Source: Candidatus Firestoneibacteriota bacterium
GTDB lineage: Bacteria; Oederibacteriota; D2-FULL-39-29; JBBTED01
Direction of reading: 5' to 3'
DNA length: 64,000 nt
NCBI GenBank assembly: GCA_038042445.1
Contig: JBBTED010000048.1
Location: forward strand, 3,663-67,662
Shown: piece by piece, positions 1 to 25,195 of the stretch
Layout of the letters: the number at the start of each line of letters is the position of its first letter
How positions within the stretch are numbered: the first letter of the stretch is position 1
Notes under the pieces: model-generated
The model's input: the letters and a program-made list of their open reading frames with translations, nothing else
Told to the model about the DNA's origin: nothing
Database searches by the model: none
Translations under genes and position numbers: made by a program

Positions 1-677
1 AAAAACTCTTTATATTCTTTGTATTCAGATACTTTAGCATTATAATTAAGTCTGCCAAATATAATTTTATCAACAAAAGATATTTCTTCAAGAATTTCCA
101 AGAAATCTTGTGGTATTATATTTGGTGTTGGATATGGTTCTATACTAACCCATGTTTTTAACCCCTTTTTGTGTAAATAATACAAATGCTTAATTCTTTC
201 CTTTATCATTGATGCAAATGGCTCTAACTTTTCCCTATAGTCATCTTTTAAAGTTATTAATGTTATTCCAAATTCATTTTCTTTACTTAAATTGGCAAGG
301 CTTATTGGTAATAGACCTTTTGTTAAAGCTGTACATCTTATATCATCAGCATTAAGCCTCTCAATAATCTTATAAGAAAGTTTTGATATTTCCTCATAAC
401 CATACATAAAAGGGTCTGTTGAAAAACAAAGATGAACAAATTTAATTCTATCTTTGTTTTTAGGTATTTCTTCTTCCAGTAATTCCAAAGCATTAGATAC
501 TATTTTAGGTTCAACCCACTCTTGATAATGTTTTACCTTGCCAAATCTTTTTGCCATCATCATTGCATAACAAGGATACAAACAACCATGAGAACAACCC
601 TCTATATGATTAATAGTATAATCTCCATATTCAACTTCTGTTTTATAAAGCAATGACTTTCTAATTATTGTTTTCAT
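1..677 (-). CDS. Radical-SAM-like protein (SplB/DUF5131-like partner of TcmP), 3' end runs off the window
   Basis: Not in ORF track; hand translation from ATG 677: MKTIIRKSLLYKTEVEYGDYTINHIEGCSHGCLYPCYA...FSTDPF...LTKG...WVSIEPYPTP; open to the window edge; 8 nt after the TcmP-like stop. Confidence 0.75.
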   Translation of the reverse strand, partial: MKTIIRKSLLYKTEVEYGDYTINHIEGCSHGCLYPCYAMMMAKRFGKVKHYQEWVEPKIVSNALELLEEEIPKNKDRIKFVHLCFSTDPFMYGYEEISKLSYKIIERLNADDIRCTALTKGLLPISLANLSKENEFGITLITLKDDYREKLEPFASMIKERIKHLYYLHKKGLKTWVSIEPYPTPNIIPQDFLEILEEISFVDKIIFGRLNYNAKVSEYKEYKEF

Positions 678-685
678 AATAACCA

Positions 686-1771
686 CTATACAAAATATAT
701 AATGTCTTTTCCACTAAGTCCTATATTTGTCTTACTTGTGACTCTTTCCACTTGAATATGTTTTTTCTTTTCCATTTCTTTAAGTGCTTTCCTAATAGCA
801 CTCTCAAGATAAGGAACATCATCAATGATACAGCTTATTAATTGATCAAACGCAATGGTTTTATTTTTAAATTCTTTCTTCAAATATTCACTAATATTTT
901 TTTGCTCTATTTCTGGAGTATCAAACAGCGTAGGATAAATTCTATCTTTACCCAAATATTCAACTTTACCAAAATTATACTTTGCAAAAGCAGATTTCAT
1001 TACAGAACAAGCAAGAGGATGATTAGCAAGATGAAAAAGATAATAATATGTTCTTGCACTATTAGGAAATGCTATTCTATAAGGAAAAACATACTGACAG
1101 ATTGTTTTTAACTTATTCCTAAATAGATTTACTATAGATTTTTCTCTTTCATTGCCTTGAAGTTGAACTAATCCCTTCCATTCATTTCCACCAAAAAGAT
1201 CATTCAGAACACCTTCAATACCTTCTATTAAAAACCTATTTATGTTATTAAACATAAAATTAAGCACAATTTCATGAAATGGCATCTGCATTATTCTTTT
1301 AAGTGTTTTAAATTTTATTTTAAAACCAAATGGATCTATGAAAAAAAATGAAGGATACGGCATATTAAGATTCTTATCAAGTATTTTATTTATTTGATTA
1401 TCAAAATCCCCTTCTATTATAAATGGTTTGACTTTTAACTTTTTTGAATCAAATATTTTTTTAAGGTTATCTACATTTTTCTTGTCTTGTTCAATTATTA
1501 CTATTTGAACATTTCTGTCTAAACTATTAATGTTTTTTTCTATTGTTTCAGCTGCAAGTACAGGTGAACCATAAAATATTTTTTTATCTTCATCAATATA
1601 AGCTCCACTTCCACCATGGCAATCAAAATAAAAGAGATCTTTATTTCTTGAACCAACTATTTTAATCCATTTATCAAAATATTCATTAACAACAAAATGC
1701 TTAATTTTTGTTTGCTCTTCGTAATTCCAAAAAAAATAGTCATATCCAGTTTTATAAATTTTATCCATCAT
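686..1771 (-). CDS. tcmP: Three-Cys-motif partner protein (TcmP-like, SAM-binding Rossmann fold, probable C-terminal wHTH)
   Basis: QTKIKH start motif, YFDCHGGSG (motif-I-like), [18 protein letters not shown]; adjacent to three-Cys radical-SAM-like gene. Confidence 0.75.
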
Positions 1772-3750
1772 TTTACCTCTGTAATAACTACACTCTCAAA
1801 ACCAAATACATCAACCGCTTTTATGCAAACTTTACGTTTATGTTTTATTTTTGGAACGTGCAGTTTTGTGCTTCTTACAACACGCATTGGATCATTATCA
1901 GATTCTACATTACCTCTATAATCTTGCCATTTACTACGAAAAACATCTCCATCATAATCAGGATCAATGCTCCAATATTCAATAAGAGCAAGTGGATCCT
2001 TAGAAATTATTTCTTGTAGTTTTTCTTTATCTTTTTCTTCAAGTGGTAAAGCATCAGGAGAAAGCAAAACATAGTTATCAAGTTCTATTGTAATCTGCTC
2101 GCTTTCATTATTTAACTCATCAACACGAATAGGTTTAATGGTTAGATATTGAAGTGAAGAAAATCGTATTTTCCCACCTTTTATCAATTTTTGATAAGAT
2201 GCTTTTGTTTTAAGCTTATCAAGTAAATCCGGGGGAATAACAAGCACTTCAATCTGTAGGTCATTTAAATTAAATATAACCTGTCCAATATCTGTTACAA
2301 AATTCCACCCAAGCACTATAACTTTTTTCCATCCACCCATAAAACTACCGCGAAGTTCCTGTGCACGTCTAAGTGTGTTATAGCCAGTAAGTTTAGAAGG
2401 TGAATCAACCATAACAAGTGTACGAGATTCTTTTACATACCCTAAATTCTTTTGAGTAGATTCTGTATCAGAAAAAGGAATAGCTCCATACAAATTCAAT
2501 ACTACATGAGAAAGGTCACTGACACGACGAAACTCACTCTTTTCAAATTGCTCTTTTTGGTAATCACCTATGGATTGATAAAGAAATGGTTTTGCATCTT
2601 GATCAATCAACCGTTTACGCATAATCATACAAGCAGGTTTTCCAATATCTGCCATTATCCAACGTCTTCCAAGTTTTTCAGCTACAGCACCTGTTGTGCC
2701 AGAACCAGCGAAAAAATCAGCTACGATTGAATTATCATTAGATGATGCTTTTATTATACGTTCTAATAATTTTTCATTCTTTTCTGTACCATATCCATAT
2801 TTGAATGTATACGCTTGAATATCCGACCAGTTTGAATCAGCAAATTTTTCTCGATTTGGCTCAACCCAATATTCTGGTTTTCCTGTTTGTGGATTTAATC
2901 TCAACTTATTGTTTTTTATGGCACTATCAATTTTCTCTTGATTCCACATCCAATGCCTTCCTGAAGGTGGAGACAATAATTTATCAAAAAATTTTCTTGT
3001 TTCTCCAGAACCGGGAGCATCCAAAGCATGCCAATAACCTTCTTCTAATATTTCAACAGGAATTGGATTTAAAACTATTCTATTACCTTTCGAATAAAGA
3101 TATATAACATCTGTTGCAACATTGAATCTTTTAATATTTGGATCGTTTTTTTTAACACGACCAACAATAATCTCATTTTTAAAATTTTCTTTCCCAAATA
3201 TTTCATCTAAAATAATTTTTACATAATGACCAACATGCCAATCAATATGAACATAAATAGATCCTGTCTCTGAGAGTAATTCTCTCATTAAAACTAATCT
3301 TGGATATATCATTTTTAAATATGAAACAGTTCCATCTTTCCATGTATCTGAATAAGCAAACTGTTCTATTACTGTTGGTTTTTGTTCAATATCTCCATTT
3401 GGAAGAGTAATTTTAGTACGGTAATCAGCTTTAGAATCAAAAGGTGGGTCAATATAAATTAAATCAATTTTGCCTCGCATAGATGGTAAACCTTGCAATT
3501 CATCACCTGCCAATAATGCCTGCATTACTAAAAGATTGTCGCCATAAATAAGCCTATTGTACCAATTCTGTTTTATATCTTCTTTTACTTTGCCTTTAAA
3601 AAGTGTTTGTGTTTCTCTAGATGGTAAAACATACTCATTTGTCTGTAATATTATCTTTTCTTTTTCCGAAAGCTCATTTAAAATTCTCTCCGCTTCCTTT
3701 TTACCTTCAGCTACAATTTTTGGCAATTGTTCAATCAATGATTCAGACAT
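1768..3750 (-). CDS. Site-specific adenine DNA methyltransferase, beta class, type III Mod-like
   Basis: [14 protein letters not shown] (motif IV) before DFFAGSGTT (motif I); 660 aa with long C-terminal extension. Confidence 0.9.
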
Positions 3751-3789
3751 ATTATTTCTCCCTTAAAACTCCAGAATTTTATTGCTTGT

Positions 3790-3818
3790 ATTATAAGTAT
3801 TTTAATCCAGATTATCAA
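3790..3818 (-). promoter_or_regulatory. sigma70-type promoter of the MTase-TcmP-radical SAM operon
   Basis: TTGATA-17 nt-TATAAT on minus strand, 40 nt upstream of the ATG; GGGAG RBS. Confidence 0.6.
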
Positions 3819-3945
3819 ATATAATCCAACTTACTAATCTTTATATTTTACCAACAACTAAAGAGAATCTATTAACATTTTATCATGAAGAAGAAATAAT
3901 GAATCTAACAAAATTAAATATTTCAGAGATATACTCTCACACTCA

Positions 3946-4605
3946 TTAGTGAGTTATATTACATATTTTGCACTTAGCATTATATTTCATAATCTCTTTG
4001 TCATTCTTTATGTATTTGAATCTATTTTTTCTTGATTGAAATGCATCCTCAATCCAAGTTCGCAATTCAGTACCATTTGTAGGCGAGAACTTATATCTTG
4101 CATAACAATCTTTATGTTCTTTATTCCAATTATCTACAAAACGTTCTGGCAAATGTACACTAGATAAATTAGGTAATAATATACCCAAAAGACCATTCGG
4201 TAAATTATCCGTTCCCTGTCTTAAACTCGCTTTAATTTCCCAATCAACAAAACGCCTACCATGAGTACAAGAACCAAGAAGTACTATAGTTACTGTTGAA
4301 TCTTGAATGTACCTTTTTCGTATTTGCGCAATTACATATTCTGGATTATCACTATTAATAAAATCATCTTCATCGCTGACACCTAAAGCTTTCGGAATAA
4401 ATATTTTTTCTCTTTCAGTCCACCTATATAAAAATAATTTAACTTTATCATCATCCCTGTGGCAAAAGGATATAAAAACTTTCCTTTTGGGTTCTTGTTT
4501 ACGTATTGACATTTCGCGTAGAATCTTTGCAAATCCTGTTTTCCTTCTTTCTTCTTCCATTTTTAATCTCCACACTTTCTGCAAAGGTAATTCATACATA
4601 ATCAA
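3946..4605 (-). CDS. TIR-domain protein, Thoeris ThsB-like (probable true start 4560)
   Basis: KVFISF, YIQDSTVTIVLLG, RRFVDWEIKASL (catalytic-type Glu), PNGLLGILLP; GGAG RBS precedes ATG 4560. Confidence 0.85.
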   Translation of the reverse strand: MIMYELPLQKVWRLKMEEERRKTGFAKILREMSIRKQEPKRKVFISFCHRDDDKVKLFLYRWTEREKIFIPKALGVSDEDDFINSDNPEYVIAQIRKRYIQDSTVTIVLLGSCTHGRRFVDWEIKASLRQGTDNLPNGLLGILLPNLSSVHLPERFVDNWNKEHKDCYARYKFSPTNGTELRTWIEDAFQSRKNRFKYIKNDKEIMKYNAKCKICNITH

Positions 4606-4678
4606 ATATGCATCCTAAAACATATTGTGAAACCATGGATTATAGTCATTGAAAATTATGTTAATTCTTTACATCAAA

Positions 4679-5227
4679 CTATTTCGGCAATAATTGCGGC
4701 TTTTTATTAACATCCACTAATTTATATACCTCAACAAGTTTTGTCTGTAACTTTCTAATCAATACCCTCATATTCTTCCAATCTTCTAAGAACCTCTGAC
4801 AATATGGATACTTTGTTTGTCTCTTAATAGGAGGTAATCTCTTAGCTTTTTTGCCACAATATTCCCACCAATGTCTATAATCCGACTGCCATTTCTCTAA
4901 AAAAGGTCTAAGAACATTTACCATTAAATCATTTATAATAATCCCCAAATGGTTACTTTTACTTTTCTTAAGTTGACCAACTGGAAATTTTCTCATTATA
5001 CTTCTGCATTCTCTAAAGAAATTATGGACAGAATCAAGACTTTCAATAAATACTTCTCCTTTAAAATTTTCACACTTGTGGTCATTGCTCTTCCCAGTTA
5101 CGGACAATCTAGTACTAATTTCAGTATACAATTCCCATGCACATTGCCGATCTTCCTCTGAAATTTCTGCTTGTATTTCTAAAAAACCAAGATTCAATGT
5201 TAAATTCAATTTTTTCAGTTCTGGCAT
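4679..5227 (-). CDS. Hypothetical 182-aa, mostly helical protein between two TIR genes
   Basis: ORF with AGGAG RBS, 11 nt after the TIR stop; AWELYTEISTR and VLRPFLEKW segments; no catalytic motif recognised. Confidence 0.75.
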   Translation of the reverse strand: MPELKKLNLTLNLGFLEIQAEISEEDRQCAWELYTEISTRLSVTGKSNDHKCENFKGEVFIESLDSVHNFFRECRSIMRKFPVGQLKKSKSNHLGIIINDLMVNVLRPFLEKWQSDYRHWWEYCGKKAKRLPPIKRQTKYPYCQRFLEDWKNMRVLIRKLQTKLVEVYKLVDVNKKPQLLPK

Positions 5228-5238
5228 ATAATCTCCTA

Positions 5239-5703
5239 TTAATCAGGATCCTTATCTATCCATTTATCAAGCTTTTCCGGATTCCAATTCATTACTTCTG
5301 TTGATCGTTCACCTAATGCAGATGGTTTCTTAGCATTATCACGATCTTTAAGTCGCATACCTCTTATTCGTTGCCAAGTTTTATCTCCAGATAAGTCATA
5401 TTTCATATTATAAAATGTTTTAATCTCCCAATCAACCCATTCACTATCAAAAGTAGAAGGACCAATAAGCACAACAAGTTTTGAAGCATTATCAAACTTA
5501 GAAATAATTTCCTCCCGTACTGGTTTAGACCTATCATCATTTGGTGGATAAATAATTGGTTTACCACTTTTATCTAGAACTGGATCCTTTAACGAATGAT
5601 CTCTAAAATCCAAAACATGATCTGGATTGTTATTTAAAAGCTTAAATCCATTCACCTGCGAAACATCACCATGGTCATAACTAATAAAGACATTCTTACT
5701 CAT
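5239..5703 (-). CDS. TIR-domain protein, ThsB/MTH538-like
   Basis: KNVFISYDH, ASKLVVLIG, SEWVDWEI (catalytic-type Glu); GAGGAGG RBS. Confidence 0.85.
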   Translation of the reverse strand: MSKNVFISYDHGDVSQVNGFKLLNNNPDHVLDFRDHSLKDPVLDKSGKPIIYPPNDDRSKPVREEIISKFDNASKLVVLIGPSTFDSEWVDWEIKTFYNMKYDLSGDKTWQRIRGMRLKDRDNAKKPSALGERSTEVMNWNPEKLDKWIDKDPD

Positions 5704-5720
5704 AAAATATCACCTCCTCA

Positions 5721-6350
5721 TTATAATTTTCCGATTGTTGTAACAACAATGCCTTGAATTTTAAAGTCCCTTGTTAATATTATTGGTTTATGTGTTTCAT
5801 TCGTAGATCTGGGTTTTAAAACAATTGCCCCTGCCTCACAAAAAAATTCTTTAATAGTTGCCTCATCATCAATAAGTGCAACAACCATATCCCCATTATT
5901 AGCATTAGGCTGCTGACGAACTAAAACAATATCTCCATCATTAATTTTATTTTGATTCATAGAATCACCTTTTGCTCTAAGCAAAAAATATTTGTATGGT
6001 GGCTTAGCTATATCAGTTGACACCAATATCTCTGCACTAACATTTACTTCTGCTAAAATAGGACTACCACACGAGACCACACCAACCAAAGGAACTTTTA
6101 CAGTTTGAGCACATTCCTTGTTATTAATCTCTATATCAATATCTTTTACAAGTTGTAAAGTTGTATCTGATTTTCTTTTAATCCATCCCTTCTTAATTAA
6201 ATTATCTATGTAAATAGAAATGGAACGGGGTGATTTATATTCAAACTCTTTCATAAGTTGACGAACAGATGGACTTTCACCTACATCTATCAAATGGTTA
6301 CGTATCGCCCTTAATACTCCTGTTTCTTTCTTTGATAATCCTATTGCCAT
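5721..6350 (-). CDS. lexA: LexA-family repressor (wHTH plus S24 peptidase)
   Basis: PSVRQL...SPRSI wHTH; VPLVGVVSCG cleavage loop; GDSM (Ser) and ATIK (Lys) dyad. Confidence 0.88.
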   Translation of the reverse strand: MAIGLSKKETGVLRAIRNHLIDVGESPSVRQLMKEFEYKSPRSISIYIDNLIKKGWIKRKSDTTLQLVKDIDIEINNKECAQTVKVPLVGVVSCGSPILAEVNVSAEILVSTDIAKPPYKYFLLRAKGDSMNQNKINDGDIVLVRQQPNANNGDMVVALIDDEATIKEFFCEAGAIVLKPRSTNETHKPIILTRDFKIQGIVVTTIGKL

Positions 6351-6383
6351 TTTTATTTACCCCCTCTTCAGTATACATACACC

Positions 6384-6412
6384 ATTATACACAATACTAT
6401 ACATCTTGTCAA
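6384..6412 (-). promoter_or_regulatory. Consensus sigma70 promoter of the lexA-TIR operon
   Basis: TTGACA (6412-6407), 17 nt, TATAAT (6389-6384). Confidence 0.8.
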
Positions 6413-6476
6413 TAAAATAATGTGGAGAGTTTCTCCAAAATTAAGTTGCGAAATGATATAAATCCATTAAAATCGA

Positions 6477-6499
6477 GCAAACCTAAAGGTTTGCCCTAC
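6477..6499. repeat. GTAG-family REP-like half element (type B)
   Basis: GCAAACCTAAAGGTTTGCCCTAC; same arm at about 25998-26020 and 61500-61522. Confidence 0.8.
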
Positions 6500-6619
6500 T
6501 TTTTATATTATATATATGAACAAAATAGCAGGTAATTTTGAAAAATGGGGAAATTCCACTTACATTTGTATTGACATTTCAAATTACATATTAAATAATA
6601 CATCTGGAGGTGATGTTAA

Positions 6620-6904
6620 ATGATAACTGTAAAAGAAAATACAACATTGGTTGGAATCACTGAATTGAGACACAAGATAGATGAAATTTTAGAAGTGACC
6701 AAAAAAAACAATGTAATAATTGAAAAAAGAAATAAACCAATTGCAGTGCTTTTTCCGATAGACGAATATATAAAAATTCAAGAGATATTAGATATGGTAG
6801 AAGATAAAATGTTTGGACATATTGCTAAAGAAAGATATGAAAAAAGTTCTTCAAAAAATTATATTTCGTTAGAATCTGCCAAGAAAAAGGTCGGAATAAA
6901 ATAA
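6620..6904 (+). CDS. Phd/YefM-family antitoxin
   Basis: VGITELR...VIIEKRNKPIAVL fold; directly upstream of RelE-like gene with TAATG overlap; TTGACA at 6571. Confidence 0.8.
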   Translation: MITVKENTTLVGITELRHKIDEILEVTKKNNVIIEKRNKPIAVLFPIDEYIKIQEILDMVEDKMFGHIAKERYEKSSSKNYISLESAKKKVGIK

Positions 6905-7206
6905 TGTGGAATATTGAAATACATACTTTAGTCTTTGAAGAAGATTTTAAGAAAATAGACTCCTCTATGCAACAAGTAATTCTAAAAGCCATAGAAAAAA
7001 AATTAAGTGTAGATCCAGAAAATTATGGTACACCATTAAGAAATGAATTAAAAGGTTTCTGGAAACTGCCAATATCAAATTATCGCGTTATTTACAGGAT
7101 AGAAAAACAACAAGTAAAAATTCTGGTTGTTAAAATTGGAATAAGAAGAGATTTTGAGGTTTACAAAGAAATGATTCCACGAATGAAAAAATTATTCATT
7201 TCATGA
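6904..7206 (+). CDS. RelE/ParE-family toxin
   Basis: 100 aa, GTPLRNELKGFWKL..NYRVIYRI..VVKIGIRR. Confidence 0.85.
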   Translation: MWNIEIHTLVFEEDFKKIDSSMQQVILKAIEKKLSVDPENYGTPLRNELKGFWKLPISNYRVIYRIEKQQVKILVVKIGIRRDFEVYKEMIPRMKKLFIS

Positions 7207-23307: not shown

Positions 23308-24165
23308 ATGTCAACCACCCACAAACTTATAATTGGCAATTGTATGAGTATGGAAGAAATTCCGAATGAAAGTGTCCATTTGATGATTACTTCACCACCA
23401 TACTTTAATGCACCTTTTGACTATAAAGGATTATTCAAAGATTATGAGCAGTATCTTGACGTGTTAAAAAATTTTGCTCAGGAAACTTTTAGAGTTTTAC
23501 AAGACGGAAGAATTGCTGTGTTAAATATTGATGATATGTTGATAGATGGCGAAAAATTCCCGATTGTTGCTGACGCAACAAAAATTTTTCAAGAAGTCGG
23601 ATTTAGATATAGAGACAGGATTGTTTGGAAAAAACCTGATGGCTATTTGAGAATTAGCCGCCGTAGTGGAGTAATGCTTCAAAATCCTTATCCAATGTAT
23701 TTTTATCCTGATAATTTATTGGAAAGCATTATTATTTTTCAAAAAGGCAAATTCAACTATCGCTCAATTTCAAAGGAAGTTCGCGAAACTTCAAAAGTTG
23801 ATACAAAGGAATTTTTAAGCAAAAAATGGTATATGACGCTTTGGGAAATAAATAATGTAATGCCAGGTTCTCTGTTGGAAAAGGACATTGCGGCTTTTCC
23901 TGGAGAATTGCCATATCGCGCAATTAAACTTTTTTCCTACAAGGGTGAAATTGTATTGGATCCATTTGCCGGTAGCGGCACAACGATGAAAAAAGCTCGT
24001 GAATTAGAAAGAAATAGTATTGGTATTGAAATAAAAAAATTGCTGGTTCCAGTGATTAAAAAAAAATTGGGTTTTGACGGCGCCCAAAATGACTTTTTCG
24101 CCGACCAAAACGACAAATTAGAAATTATCAATCGTAAAGCAGGGAAATATGGACCTATTAGCTAA
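23308..24165 (+). CDS. DNA methyltransferase, beta class (N4-C/N6-A) of a type II R-M pair
   Basis: ITSPPY (motif IV) before LDPFAGSGTT (motif I). Confidence 0.9.
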   Translation: MSTTHKLIIGNCMSMEEIPNESVHLMITSPPYFNAPFDYKGLFKDYEQYLDVLKNFAQETFRVLQDGRIAVLNIDDMLIDGEKFPIVADATKIFQEVGFRYRDRIVWKKPDGYLRISRRSGVMLQNPYPMYFYPDNLLESIIIFQKGKFNYRSISKEVRETSKVDTKEFLSKKWYMTLWEINNVMPGSLLEKDIAAFPGELPYRAIKLFSYKGEIVLDPFAGSGTTMKKARELERNSIGIEIKKLLVPVIKKKLGFDGAQNDFFADQNDKLEIINRKAGKYGPIS

Positions 24166-25195
24166 AATTAAGGGTATAAAATATACTCCACTTCTTTGCC
24201 GAGATTTAGAAGTTTTTGACTTCAAGGATTTAAAAATATCTTTGGATTCTTGTGCTTCTTTTATCCTTAATATCAATAAAGAAAACAAAATTGCTATAAG
24301 TTGGTGGGTTTCAGCTAAACGCACTCGTTCCTATCCTTACGCTAGAGTTTATGATACTTTAGGTTTTTCCGGTAAAAAGATAACAATAATTCCAGTTGTT
24401 AAAGATGAAGGAAAAGAAGGCGACAGAGATTTTTTACAATGGGACACAATTTCATTGATGAGTTTGTTAGGCGTTTATGTAATTATTGCCTATTACAACG
24501 ACGCCGAAAGAAGCAAAAAATACAGACACAAAATTACAAACCAACGTTTTGATATTGATTATATTAGAGAACAAATTAAAAATATTCTTTCTTACCAATC
24601 AGACGCCTTGCATTGGAATCTTGTTCATGTTAACAGGATTGGACAAATTGGACAAAAATCATTGGAATCTTATGCTAAAATTTCTAAAAAATTAAAAGTC
24701 GAAATGCACTCAAGTCAATCTGTAGAAAAAAGAATTGCCGAACTTTTGAAAGGTAAAGATAATTTTATGAAATTATCTCGAATGTTGGCAGAAAAAGCCC
24801 AAAGGCGAGAACAATTAACCGTGCAACCAAAAGAAAAATTATCGGGAACAAAAGCGATAATTACAATACGAAATTATTTGGGTGGATATTATTATTTCAC
24901 TTCGGACGAAACCGAAGTGAAAGGAAATAATATCTTTTTAATTGAGAGCAAGCATAGCAAAATTAATCCTTTGCCATCTTTGGAAGATATAAAAGACGGG
25001 TTAGTAAAAATGATTTTATTTTCCAATCTTGAATATTTAAAAATGAATGGCAGAAATTATAATCCAATAGCAGTATTAAAACTAACTGTTGAAGACACTT
25101 TTGATGTAAATAGTCTGAACAAAACTCAAAAAGAAACATTACATCTGCTTAGCAAAGAAGCAAAACAAAATGGATTTAATGTACGAATTTTATGA
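24149..25195 (+). CDS. Probable type II restriction endonuclease (PD-(D/E)xK)
   Basis: Overlaps the MTase by 17 nt; TSDET...LIESKH acidic/Lys motif; 348 aa. Confidence 0.6.
   Translation: MDLLAKIKGIKYTPLLCRDLEVFDFKDLKISLDSCASFILNINKENKIAISWWVSAKRTRSYPYARVYDTLGFSGKKITIIPVVKDEGKEGDRDFLQWDTISLMSLLGVYVIIAYYNDAERSKKYRHKITNQRFDIDYIREQIKNILSYQSDALHWNLVHVNRIGQIGQKSLESYAKISKKLKVEMHSSQSVEKRIAELLKGKDNFMKLSRMLAEKAQRREQLTVQPKEKLSGTKAIITIRNYLGGYYYFTSDETEVKGNNIFLIESKHSKINPLPSLEDIKDGLVKMILFSNLEYLKMNGRNYNPIAVLKLTVEDTFDVNSLNKTQKETLHLLSKEAKQNGFNVRIL

What the first reader, a model, noticed from the sequence alone, without database searches (positions are those of the whole stretch)
3946..6412. Thoeris-like TIR - orphan - TIR operon with no recognisable ThsA, headed by a LexA-like repressor
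Seen: a perfect sigma70 promoter, then lexA, TIR1 (17-nt gap), a 182-aa orphan (11-nt gap) and TIR2, each with its own RBS. Both TIRs keep the WVDWEI/FVDWEI catalytic-type Glu. Known: Thoeris uses one or more ThsB TIRs to make NAD-derived signals for an effector (SIR2-STALD, TM-Macro or caspase-like). None of those motifs occurs in this window. Inference: this is a TIR signalling immune system whose effector is the uncharacterised middle protein, and its expression may be wired to RecA/ssDNA through a dedicated LexA. This is the strongest candidate for an undescribed system here.
Basis: partly seen in the sequence, partly recalled or inferred. Interest (0 to 1): 0.85.

Follow-up and report, generated by a model that had tools for sequence, protein, structure and literature searches.

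The report
Type VI Thoeris cassette behind lexA
The "orphan" between the two TIR genes is a soluble, very conserved relative of ThsG (DUF6650), the effector of the type VI Thoeris anti-phage system described in 2025. The system is therefore not new, but its position directly behind a canonical lexA, in a slot that holds other immune systems in relatives, is unusual and testable.

Summary
On the minus strand, a perfect sigma-70 promoter drives lexA, TIR1, a 182-aa protein and TIR2, with gaps of 17 nt and 11 nt and no internal terminator.

The orphan belongs to a large family that sits next to a ThsB-type TIR gene in at least 39 of 52 genomes. Profile-profile comparison links it to TM-DUF6650 proteins next to validated type VI ThsB relatives (98%, E 2e-13). 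DUF6650 (ThsG) is the effector of type VI Thoeris, whose signal is 2'cADPR (Yirmiya et al., bioRxiv, Dec 2025). TIR2 is closest to type VI ThsBs. TIR1 is the partner that travels with the closest orphan homologues.

LexA is not part of the system, since none of about 60 other loci has it. It is a canonical LexA with a Cys-Gly cleavage site, and the DNA just downstream of it is a variable slot. An 87%-identical LexA relative has a trypsin-like gene in place of the Thoeris cassette. More distant relatives carry CBASS, ThsA_Macro with ART toxins, DUF2188 operons or recA there.

Best reading: a type VI-like Thoeris with two sensors, probably co-transcribed with lexA and so SOS-inducible. This is a new variant of a known kind, of moderate interest.

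The parts
6384..6412 (-). Sigma-70 promoter of the operon (TTGACA, 17 nt, TATAAT)
   Evidence: Scores 12/12 in the consensus scan and is the only perfect match in 3700-6700. The homologous promoter is conserved in L064.
6370..6403 (-). Candidate LexA operator: TGTAT repeats overlapping the spacer, the -10 hexamer and the transcription start region
   Evidence: TGTATN5-8TGTAT occurs twice here. The only other window matches are two intragenic ones. TGTAT repeats recur just upstream of lexA in most of the relatives examined. This is suggestive only.
5721..6350 (-). lexA: canonical LexA repressor (wHTH plus S24 autopeptidase) with Cys94-Gly95 cleavage site, Ser130 and Lys167
   Evidence: TIGR00498 scores 153.7 bits against a cut-off of 110.95. 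Pfam gives PF01726 plus PF00717. The catalytic and cleavage residues are invariant in 15 clade members.
5239..5703 (-). thsB-1 (TIR1): ThsB-type TIR with catalytic-type Glu93. It is the co-inherited partner of this ThsG subfamily.
   Evidence: PF08937 at 1.9e-16. It is 62-73% identical to the TIR genes directly upstream of the closest orphan homologues in L059, L061 and L063.
4679..5227 (-). thsG-like effector (the "orphan"): soluble DUF6650-superfamily protein, an N-terminal beta-hairpin plus a helical bundle
   Evidence: 476 homologues. hhalign against TM-DUF6650 gives 86% (A1) and 98%, E 2.2e-13 (A3). The A2 HMM hits P0001 at 3.9e-6 and all 120 close homologues. The AF2 model has pLDDT 82.
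3946..4560 (-). thsB-2 (TIR2): a second ThsB-type TIR with the catalytic-type Glu (E108 in 204-aa numbering). The ORF extends to 4605.
   Evidence: PF08937 at 2.6e-15. Its best matches are type VI ThsBs, 36-38% identity, E 3e-18 to 2e-11, against 8e-7 or worse for other types. It is 51% identical to the TIR upstream of the orphan homologue in L032. The 204-aa start matches the gene call in L056.
3826..5733 (-). Variable cassette slot between lexA and the methyltransferase island. In the closest relative it holds a different gene.
   Evidence: blastn of the window against L064 gives 89% over 6414-5734 and 85% over 3825-3181. The segment between is not homologous, and L064 has a 290-aa trypsin-like gene there.
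6423..6496 (-). Two terminator-like hairpins just upstream of the promoter, between the divergent phd/parE pair and lexA
   Evidence: Terminator scan.
686..3750 (-). Neighbouring defence island: type III-like N6/N4 methyltransferase (1768-3750) and TcmP (686-1771). It continues beyond the window with radical-SAM and ResIII genes. It is not part of the Thoeris cassette.
   Evidence: PADLOC MTase_III 2e-75 and PDC-M30A 1.2e-17. TIGR04474 TcmP 1.9e-50. L055 gene table. A promoter-like site scoring 11/12 lies at 3818->3790.

Best explanation
The cassette is a type VI-like Thoeris anti-phage system with two sensor and signal-producing TIR proteins (ThsB-1 and ThsB-2) flanking one effector, a soluble ThsG/DUF6650-superfamily protein.

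By analogy with the validated type VI systems, a ThsB senses infection and converts NAD+ into a cyclic ADP-ribose isomer, 2'cADPR in the tested systems. This step uses the conserved Glu, E93 in TIR1 and E108 in TIR2. The signal then binds Arg/Thr/Ser/Trp-lined pockets of an oligomeric ThsG, which arrests growth.

The cassette occupies a variable slot immediately 3' of a canonical, autoregulated lexA. Because the gap is 17 nt, there is no terminator and there is a single strong promoter, it is most likely transcribed with lexA. Basal expression would then be kept low by LexA and raised when RecA-ssDNA triggers LexA self-cleavage.

Shown here: the gene content, the homologies, the TIR linkage and the cassette replacement in a close relative.

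Inferred: the identity of the signal, oligomerisation, toxicity, co-transcription and SOS induction.
For: Effector homology:
- hhalign of the orphan family against TM-DUF6650 proteins gives 86% for A1 and 98.0%, E 2.2e-13 over 135 columns for A3.
- These DUF6650 proteins lie next to a TIR that is 51% identical to the validated E. coli ACN001 type VI ThsB. Two of them carry a precomputed PF20355 hit.
- The A2 HMM hits 244 of 270 members of the extended family, including all 120 close homologues.
- 49 of 69 long representatives have N-terminal TM segments. This matches the "DUF6650 and TM" architecture in Table S2 of the preprint.

TIR linkage:
- 39 of 52 genome loci have a same-strand TIR within 700 nt, usually with a gap under 15 nt or an overlap. 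About five more TIRs are recognisable by eye.
- The same holds in L057, L059, L061, L063 and the viral contigs L074-L078.

TIR types:
- TIR2 is closest to type VI ThsBs.
- TIR1 is 62-73% identical to the partner of the closest orphans.

Other support:
- The neighbourhoods are defence islands with RM systems, Abi and an integrase.
- Type VI biology (2'cADPR signal, DUF6650 effector, hexamer model) comes from bioRxiv 10.64898/2025.12.03.692087.
Against: - The orphan gets no direct Pfam DUF6650 hit. The same library also fails on proteins with a precomputed PF20355 hit, so this is uninformative.
- The single-family comparison is only moderate (86%).
- The soluble subfamily has its own invariant residues and an inserted loop (C29, D49, C52, H93, E111, R136) that the TM-type lacks. 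Its output activity may therefore differ.
- TIR1 is not specifically type VI-like, so its product is unknown.
- No fold match exists in PDB or BFVD.
- Co-transcription and SOS control rest on sequence only. The candidate operator is not validated and was found at no other promoter in the window.
- In E. coli datasets, defence expression correlates negatively with recA (bioRxiv 10.64898/2025.12.14.694197).
Confidence: 0.72

Rival explanations
1. LexA here is a dedicated regulator that is carried with the island and travels with defence cargo. It would be a one-protein functional analogue of CapH/CapP, rather than the cell's housekeeping SOS repressor that happens to sit next to a hotspot.
For: - Homology between the window and L064 starts exactly at the -35 hexamer of the lexA promoter, and the upstream DNA differs.
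- Upstream genes differ in every lexA locus examined. They include an integrase (L159) and a PDDEXK/AAA_24/DnaB-like replication module (L065).
- Seven of eight distinct loci of the clade (window included) have non-SOS, mostly conflict-type genes directly downstream.
- Canonical LexA is reported absent from Bacteroidetes (PMC8565304). Even so, loci with Bacteroidota-like features (Por_Secre_tail, SprB/CHU_C, and a TAnnTTTG-type promoter by my reading) carry this LexA with CBASS or a DUF2188 operon.
Against: - It passes the TIGR00498 equivalog cut-off.
- One clade member is in a classic lexA-recA arrangement (L070).
- In L067/L068 the upstream genes are housekeeping.
- The rest of the window is core chromosome: dnaE, guaA/guaB and the rnpA-yidC-mnmE region.
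- No close relative is found in IMG/VR, where full-length matches reach at most 34% identity.
- None of about 60 Thoeris VI-like loci carries it.
Confidence: 0.25
2. The adjacency to lexA has no regulatory meaning. The cassette landed in a permissive intergenic hotspot and is expressed from its own weak internal promoters, independent of SOS.
For: - The slot is plainly a recombination or insertion hotspot, with cassette replacement between 85-90% identical flanks.
- Promoter-like sites scoring 9-10/12 exist inside the operon on the minus strand, for example 5435->5407.
- The Thoeris family is otherwise LexA-independent.
Against: - The gap is 17 nt, holds only an RBS and has no terminator.
- Gaps are similarly tight (4-61 nt) between lexA and unrelated cargo in six other loci.
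- Internal promoter-like hits are no more frequent than in shuffled sequence (18 found, 17.3 expected).
Confidence: 0.2
3. The orphan is not a signal-activated effector. It could instead be an accessory or regulatory partner such as a chaperone or an antitoxin-like inhibitor of the TIRs. The TIRs themselves would then act as NAD+-depleting effectors.
For: - The protein is soluble and has no recognisable enzymatic fold or TM segment.
- The preprint itself says it is unclear how TM-less ThsG exerts toxicity.
- Its conservation is unusually high for a defence effector, 50-68% identity across phyla.
Against: - In validated type VI systems, the TIR produces 2'cADPR only on infection.
- Exogenous 2'cADPR arrests growth of cells carrying the two-gene system, including a TM-less Bacillus version.
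- The residues conserved across the superfamily are Arg, Thr, Ser, Trp and Gln, as expected for a nucleotide-binding pocket.
Confidence: 0.08

Closest known systems
Type VI Thoeris (ThsB TIR + ThsG/DUF6650; signal 2'cADPR), Yirmiya et al., bioRxiv 10.64898/2025.12.03.692087
   Same: - A ThsB-type TIR with the catalytic Glu sits next to a DUF6650-superfamily protein in a compact operon within a defence island.
- TIR2 is 36-38% identical to the validated gammaproteobacterial and E. coli type VI ThsBs.
- TM-less ThsG variants exist and defend.
   Different: - The effector belongs to a divergent, soluble, highly conserved subfamily that Pfam, NCBIfam and PADLOC do not recognise. It has a subfamily-specific loop and invariant Cys, His and acidic residues.
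- Two ThsBs of different clades flank the effector.
- The cassette is placed behind lexA.
- The signal and the phenotype are untested.
Type I Thoeris with multiple ThsB genes (ThsA SIR2-SLOG + ThsB)
   Same: One effector is served by more than one ThsB, presumably to widen phage recognition. The TIRs hit the same Pfam family, PF08937.
   Different: There is no SIR2 or SLOG domain, and the effector fold is unrelated. The signal is probably a different cADPR isomer.
CapH/CapP and CapW/BrxR regulators of CBASS and other defence systems (DNA-damage or stress-induced de-repression)
   Same: As an inferred concept, a repressor that is removed after a DNA-damage-type signal raises expression of an immune-signalling operon.
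   Different: Here a single canonical LexA (wHTH plus S24 self-cleaving peptidase, RecA-dependent by family knowledge) would do this. There is no HTH plus metallopeptidase pair and no WYL protein. LexA is not conserved with the defence family.
PADLOC candidate system PDC-M50
   Same: TIR2 and TIR1 hit PDC-M50B (1.8e-9 and 4.5e-6).
   Different: The orphan does not hit PDC-M50A or any other PADLOC model.

Membership tests
Type VI Thoeris | A ThsB protein with a TIR domain and the catalytic Glu | tested here: met
   PF08937 for TIR1 and TIR2. WVDWEI (E93) and FVDWEI are present. TIR2's best hits are type VI ThsBs.
Type VI Thoeris | The effector carries the DUF6650 (PF20355, ThsG) domain, tested by profile-profile and HMM comparison with DUF6650 proteins | tested here: met
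   hhalign A3 against A2 gives 98.0%, E 2.2e-13. A1 against A2 gives 86%. The A2 HMM hits P0001 at 3.9e-6 and 120 of 120 close homologues. A2 members P0129 and P0133 carry PF20355.5.
Type VI Thoeris | A direct hit of the Pfam PF20355 model on the effector | tested here: inconclusive
   There is no hit for the orphan, 26 close relatives or 72 diverse relatives. The same library also returns no PF20355 for the 15 TM-DUF6650 controls.
Type VI Thoeris | A conserved TIR-effector gene pair across genomes, within defence islands | tested here: met
   39 of 52 loci by HMM, plus about five by eye. RM, Abi and integrase neighbours are seen.
Type VI Thoeris | The TIR produces 2'cADPR on infection, and the effector is activated specifically by 2'cADPR | not testable with these tools
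   This needs LC-MS and growth assays. It is known only for the tested systems.
Type VI Thoeris | The effector forms a homo-hexameric tube with positively charged inter-protomer pockets | not tested
   Only a monomer model could be made. Arg40, Arg75 and Arg107 are conserved across the superfamily.
Type I / II / IV Thoeris | A SIR2-SLOG, TM-Macro or caspase-like effector next to ThsB | tested here: not met
   No such Pfam or PADLOC hit exists for any operon protein.
Canonical LexA (SOS repressor) | LexA wHTH plus S24 peptidase, a cleavage site and a Ser/Lys dyad, scoring above the equivalog cut-off | tested here: met
   TIGR00498 scores 153.7 against 110.95. PF01726 and PF00717 are present. 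C94-G95, S130 and K167 are invariant in the clade.
Canonical LexA (SOS repressor) | An autoregulatory operator that is shared with other SOS promoters such as recA, uvrA or dinB | tested here: inconclusive
   TGTAT repeats overlap the promoter and recur upstream of lexA in relatives. No second promoter site was found in the window. No SOS gene besides lexA was recognised in the window's gene content, though the family listings were truncated to 25 families.
Phage CI/LexA-like prophage repressor | Encoded on viral contigs next to lysogeny or lysis modules | tested here: not met
   The best full-length IMG/VR relatives reach at most 34% identity. The window flanks are chromosomal.
PADLOC PDC-M50 | Both PDC-M50A and PDC-M50B are present | tested here: not met
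   Only M50B-like TIR hits were found, and nothing hits the orphan.

The most novel reading that the evidence does not exclude
In one clade of canonical LexA proteins (Cys-Gly cleavage site; candidate division WOR-3 and lineages with Bacteroidota-like features), the position immediately 3' of lexA may be a dedicated exchangeable slot for immune cassettes. The slot holds type VI Thoeris in the window, and two CBASS operons, ThsA_Macro with ART toxins, a trypsin-like protein or DUF2188 operons elsewhere. These systems would be transcribed from the LexA-repressed lexA promoter, so abortive-infection immunity would be gated by the SOS response. Separately, the soluble hyper-conserved ThsG subfamily may have an output activity of its own, suggested by its subfamily-specific invariant Cys, His and acidic residues.
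Probability: 0.3. Interest if true: 0.7.

Novelty: new variant of a known kind. Interest (0 to 1): 0.5.

Why it matters

It does add two things. First, it shows that type VI Thoeris includes a large, cross-phylum, TM-less ThsG subfamily that current Pfam, NCBIfam and PADLOC models miss. There are 476 clusters at 90% identity. The whole superfamily has 688 representatives at 50% identity. Annotation pipelines are therefore probably undercounting this system. The subfamily's extreme conservation also makes it a good target for working out how soluble ThsG stops growth, which the discovery paper leaves open.

Second, lexA sits tightly upstream of interchangeable immune-signalling cassettes in several related genomes. 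This suggests a simple and testable way to couple costly abortive-infection systems to DNA-damage sensing. I found no report of this for Thoeris or CBASS in the searched literature.

Tried and rejected
- Direct family searches of the orphan in Pfam (E up to 10), NCBIfam, PADLOC and PHROGs found nothing. Pfam on 26 close and 72 diverse relatives gave no DUF6650 hit. Controls then showed the library does not return PF20355 at all, so this absence carries no weight.
- Fold searches of the AF2 model against PDB and BFVD gave nothing at E <= 0.001. The top hits were generic helical bundles such as PA28 and designed proteins. Weak HEPN/MntA-HepT hits (prob 0.15-0.2) were considered and dropped, because there is no Rx4-6H motif.
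- Enumerating all 29 effector classes from Table S1 of the preprint failed, because the stored file is truncated alphabetically at about the "DUF" entries.
- The metagenome scan for close LexA relatives returned one irrelevant locus.
- The operator search with TGTATN5-8TGTAT found only the lexA promoter plus two intragenic matches, which is compatible with chance (4 found, 1.2 expected; 3 of 100 shuffles reach 4).
- The idea that LexA is a phage repressor was rejected, because no close relative exists in IMG/VR.
- The idea that LexA is a conserved component of the Thoeris family was rejected, because it is absent from every other locus.
Full report
**1. What is in the sequence**

The region 3946-6412 holds four co-oriented ORFs on the minus strand.
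- lexA, 5721-6350, 209 aa.
- TIR1, 5239-5703, 154 aa.
- A 182-aa ORF, the orphan, 4679-5227.
- TIR2, an ORF at 3946-4605. It probably starts at the ATG at 4560, which has GGAG 8 nt upstream. That gives 204 aa, matching the gene call in a second sample of the same organism (L056).

Pfam gives LexA_DNA_bind plus Peptidase_S24 for the first gene and ThsB_TIR (PF08937) for both TIRs. NCBIfam places the first gene above the TIGR00498 lexA equivalog cut-off, 153.7 against 110.95 bits.

A 12/12 TTGACA-17-TATAAT promoter lies at 6412->6384 on the minus strand. No terminator-like site occurs between it and the end of TIR2 on that strand. The lexA-TIR1 gap is 17 nt and the TIR1-orphan gap is 11 nt, and each contains a Shine-Dalgarno sequence. 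Both TIRs keep the catalytic-type Glu.

**2. The orphan is not an orphan**

It has no hit in Pfam, NCBIfam, PADLOC or PHROGs. It does have 476 homologues at E <= 1e-3 in the 5.8-billion-protein collection. These are typically 50-68% identical over the full length, all unnamed, and come from many phyla.

A scan of species-representative genomes returned 52 loci. They come from Planctomycetota, Armatimonadota, Acidobacteriota, Desulfobacterota, many Beta- and Gammaproteobacteria, Verrucomicrobiota, Bacillota and others.
- In 39 of the 52 loci, an HMM built from the TIRs finds a same-strand TIR gene within 700 nt. It is usually directly upstream, with a gap under 15 nt or an overlap.
- In about five more loci, a TIR of another subtype is recognisable by eye next to the gene (L015, L021, L030, L039, L049).
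- One further locus is cut by a contig end.

The same pairing is seen in metagenomic contigs holding the closest homologues (L057, L059, L061, L063). It is also seen in four of five IMG/VR contigs. The neighbourhoods contain type I RM operons, Abi genes, methyltransferases and an integrase. This is a conserved two-gene TIR module of defence islands.

**3. Which described system it matches**

A December 2025 preprint (Yirmiya et al., bioRxiv 10.64898/2025.12.03.692087) expands Thoeris to types V-XI.
- Type VI is a TIR plus DUF6650 (PF20355, renamed ThsG), with or without N-terminal TM helices.
- Its TIRs make 2'cADPR on infection.
- Exogenous 2'cADPR arrests growth of cells that carry the system.
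- ThsG is modelled as a homo-hexameric tube with positively charged pockets.
- How TM-less ThsG is toxic is stated to be unknown.

I used the E. coli ACN001 type VI ThsB sequence from Table S1 of the preprint to search plasmids.
- A Priestia plasmid has a TIR that is 51% identical, preceded by a 240-aa two-TM protein (L054).
- An E. coli plasmid has a 98%-identical TIR and a decayed upstream gene with the same C-terminal motif (L053).
- Homologues of the Priestia protein include two with a precomputed PF20355 hit. This family (alignment A2) is therefore the "DUF6650 and TM" ThsG.

Profile-profile comparisons link the orphan to A2.
- The close orphan family (A1) against A2 gives 86%, E 4.8e-6.
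- A broader alignment (A3, 72 diverse relatives) gives 98.0%, E 2.2e-13 over 135 columns, covering residues 11-158 of the orphan. A3 was drawn from an exhaustive HMM search of 1.84 billion representatives, which returned 688 hits.
- The A2 HMM recovers 244 of 270 members of the extended family, including all 120 close homologues. P0001, the window protein, scores 3.9e-6 in that small database.
- 49 of 69 long representatives carry N-terminal hydrophobic segments.

The missing Pfam hit is uninformative. The Pfam copy here returns no PF20355 even for the A2 proteins that carry a precomputed PF20355.5 hit.

The TIRs agree with this assignment.
- In a panel of 28 ThsB domains of all types from Table S1, TIR2's best matches are the three type VI ThsBs of cluster 2741407742. 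They are 36-38% identical, with E 3e-18 to 2e-11. The next best type scores 8e-7.
- TIR1 is not type-specific in that panel. However, it is 62-73% identical to the 155-aa TIR directly upstream of the closest orphan homologues, so TIR1 and the orphan are a co-inherited pair.
- TIR2 is 51% identical to the TIR upstream of the orphan homologue in L032.
- A TIR-effector-TIR sandwich also occurs in L074 and L009.

**4. What the protein looks like**

The AF2 model (pLDDT 82, pTM 0.79) shows an N-terminal beta-hairpin followed by a helical bundle. No PDB or BFVD structure matches it.

The positions conserved across the whole superfamily are A30, E36, T39, R40, S66, F71, R75, R107, P108, L110, W113, W120 and Q137. 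This set fits a phosphate- and adenine-binding pocket.

The soluble subfamily adds its own invariant residues (C29, H93, E111, R136, W150, R154). It also has an inserted loop at residues 45-57 with invariant D49 and C52, which the TM-type lacks. My inference is that ligand binding is shared, while the output of the soluble form may be specific to it.

**5. LexA**

None of the roughly 60 other loci of the family has a LexA or S24 gene nearby, so LexA is not a component of the system.

The protein is 56-63% identical to most of the listed LexA homologues, one of which is named from candidate division WOR-3. In its clade, the cleavage site is an invariant Cys-Gly, as in UmuD by my recollection. 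Ser130 and Lys167 are also invariant. IMG/VR holds no close relative.

The rest of the window is core chromosome. It includes DNA polymerase III alpha, IMP dehydrogenase, GMP synthase, and the rnpA, yidC and mnmE genes.

The gene contexts of eight clade members were read, and the gene directly after lexA differs among them.

| Locus | LexA identity to window | Genes after lexA |
|---|---|---|
| Window | n/a | Type VI-like Thoeris cassette |
| L064 | 87% | 290-aa trypsin-like gene, then the same MTase, radical-SAM and ResIII island as the window |
| L065 / L066 | 67% | DUF2188, then other genes, NarE and HsdR |
| L067 / L068 (WOR-3) | 63% | ThsA_Macro, Tox-ART-HYD1, Macro, Tox-ART-HYD1 |
| L073 (3.7-Mb contig) | 60% | Two CD-NTase (SMODS/DncV-like) genes, one with a Cap15 effector, i.e. 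CBASS |
| L072 | 60% | DUF2188 and a kinase-like gene |
| L159 | 59% | Small unannotated genes, with an integrase upstream |
| L070 | 60% | recA |

Gaps between lexA and the next gene are 4-72 nt.

blastn of the window against L064 shows 89% identity over the promoter and lexA (6414-5734) and 85% over the start of the methyltransferase (3825-3181). The 1.9-kb Thoeris cassette between them is replaced by 1.2 kb of unrelated DNA. The 3' flank of lexA is thus an exchange slot for conflict genes.

TGTAT repeats overlap the window promoter. They recur just upstream of lexA in most of these relatives, in both sigma-70-type and Bacteroidota-type promoter contexts. This points to a shared autoregulatory operator but is unproven.

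I could not decide whether this LexA is the housekeeping SOS repressor next to a hotspot or an island-borne paralogue. I favour the first. The evidence for each is listed under the rival explanations.

**6. Mechanism proposed**

- Shown here: the genes, the homologies, the TIR linkage, the cassette exchange and the promoter.
- Inferred from type VI biology: a ThsB senses infection and makes a cADPR isomer from NAD+ (probably 2'cADPR for the TIR2 type, unknown for TIR1). Oligomeric ThsG binds it and arrests growth. Two different ThsBs would widen the range of phages sensed.
- Inferred from operon anatomy and the known behaviour of LexA: the cassette is transcribed from the LexA-repressed promoter and is induced when RecA-ssDNA promotes LexA self-cleavage.

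**7. Novelty and score**

The system is a member of a kind described in late 2025, so it is not an undescribed class. Three things are new.
- A very large soluble ThsG subfamily that current HMM libraries miss.
- The arrangement of two ThsB clades flanking the effector.
- The placement behind lexA, in a slot that carries CBASS, Macro/ART and other cassettes in relatives.

Literature searches found no description of immune cassettes co-transcribed with lexA. I rate it a new variant of a known kind, with interest 0.5.

Noticed in passing
L064:963-2125; L065:6633-8261; L067:6636-9125; L072:5627-8276; L073:5627-10451; L159:4621-6417: In relatives of this LexA (59-87% identity), the gene directly after lexA differs each time and is often a conflict gene: a trypsin-like protein, DUF2188 operons, ThsA_Macro with Tox-ART-HYD1 and Macro, or two CD-NTase genes, one with Cap15. 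The gene is on the same strand, with a gap of 4-61 nt. One relative (L070) has recA instead.
   Followed up: partly
window 1-3750 (continues beyond the window; L055:7478-12549): This is a methyltransferase, TcmP, radical-SAM and 971-aa ResIII helicase island (PADLOC MTase_III and PDC-M30A). It is conserved at 85-91% DNA identity in L064, except that the TcmP gene is not alignable there.
   Followed up: partly
window 6620-7206 (+): A Phd/YefM antitoxin and ParE toxin pair lies divergent from lexA. It is separated from the lexA promoter by two terminator-like hairpins.
   Followed up: no
window, one ORF each among 7203-63670 (probably 23308-25195): A type II restriction enzyme (PADLOC REase_II, 1.5e-100) and a methyltransferase (MTase_II, 2.8e-75) are present elsewhere in the window. 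Weaker hits to SduA, mad3/mad8 and PD-T4-6 models also appear. These were not mapped to individual ORFs.
   Followed up: no
tool behaviour: The Pfam library used here returns no PF20355 (DUF6650) hit, even for P0129 and P0133. The protein collection lists both with a precomputed PF20355.5 hit.
   Followed up: yes
L003:5164-7902; L024:1585-4285; L027:4168-8519; L047:6821-8534: In four loci a conserved protein of about 215 aa (MGRVYIYVV.RDFGFAPNPFHG.CTLATCKP...) sits between the TIR and the ThsG-like gene. In three of them it follows a conserved 343-aa ORF. In L027 a P-loop (GxxGSGKT) ORF lies further upstream. This may be a three-gene variant.
   Followed up: no
P0146, P0148, P0151 (374-412 aa): These representatives are fusion proteins with the ThsG-like domain at the C-terminus. 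A Pfam scan of the alignment that contains them reported Response_reg hits in three members, presumably these N-terminal domains. The flavodoxin-like fold could be REC or TIR-like.
   Followed up: no
L045:8001-9632; L050:7701-10550; L051:4158-5936; L049:7986-10824: The Candidatus Thiosymbion and Vulcanimicrobiota homologues lack an adjacent ThsB-type TIR. Instead they lie near proteins that start FLIGISISESPD...LGLGKEHL...VYGGDLR. This may be another signal-related partner, but it is unverified.
   Followed up: no
L065:6638-6868; L072:5645-5866: Small DUF2188 proteins, 53% identical to each other, directly follow lexA in two otherwise different loci. The Thoeris preprint lists DUF2188 as a putative TIR-associated effector.
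   Followed up: partly
window 5721-6350 (LexA residues 94-95): All 15 aligned members of this LexA clade have Cys-Gly at the self-cleavage site, where LexA usually has Ala-Gly. By my recollection this matches the UmuD site.
   Followed up: partly
window 4679-5227 (orphan residues 29, 45-57): The soluble ThsG subfamily has an inserted loop with invariant G45, D49, C52 and G57, plus invariant C29. The loop is absent (98% gaps) from TM-type relatives. It could be a disulfide, a metal site or an output element.
   Followed up: partly
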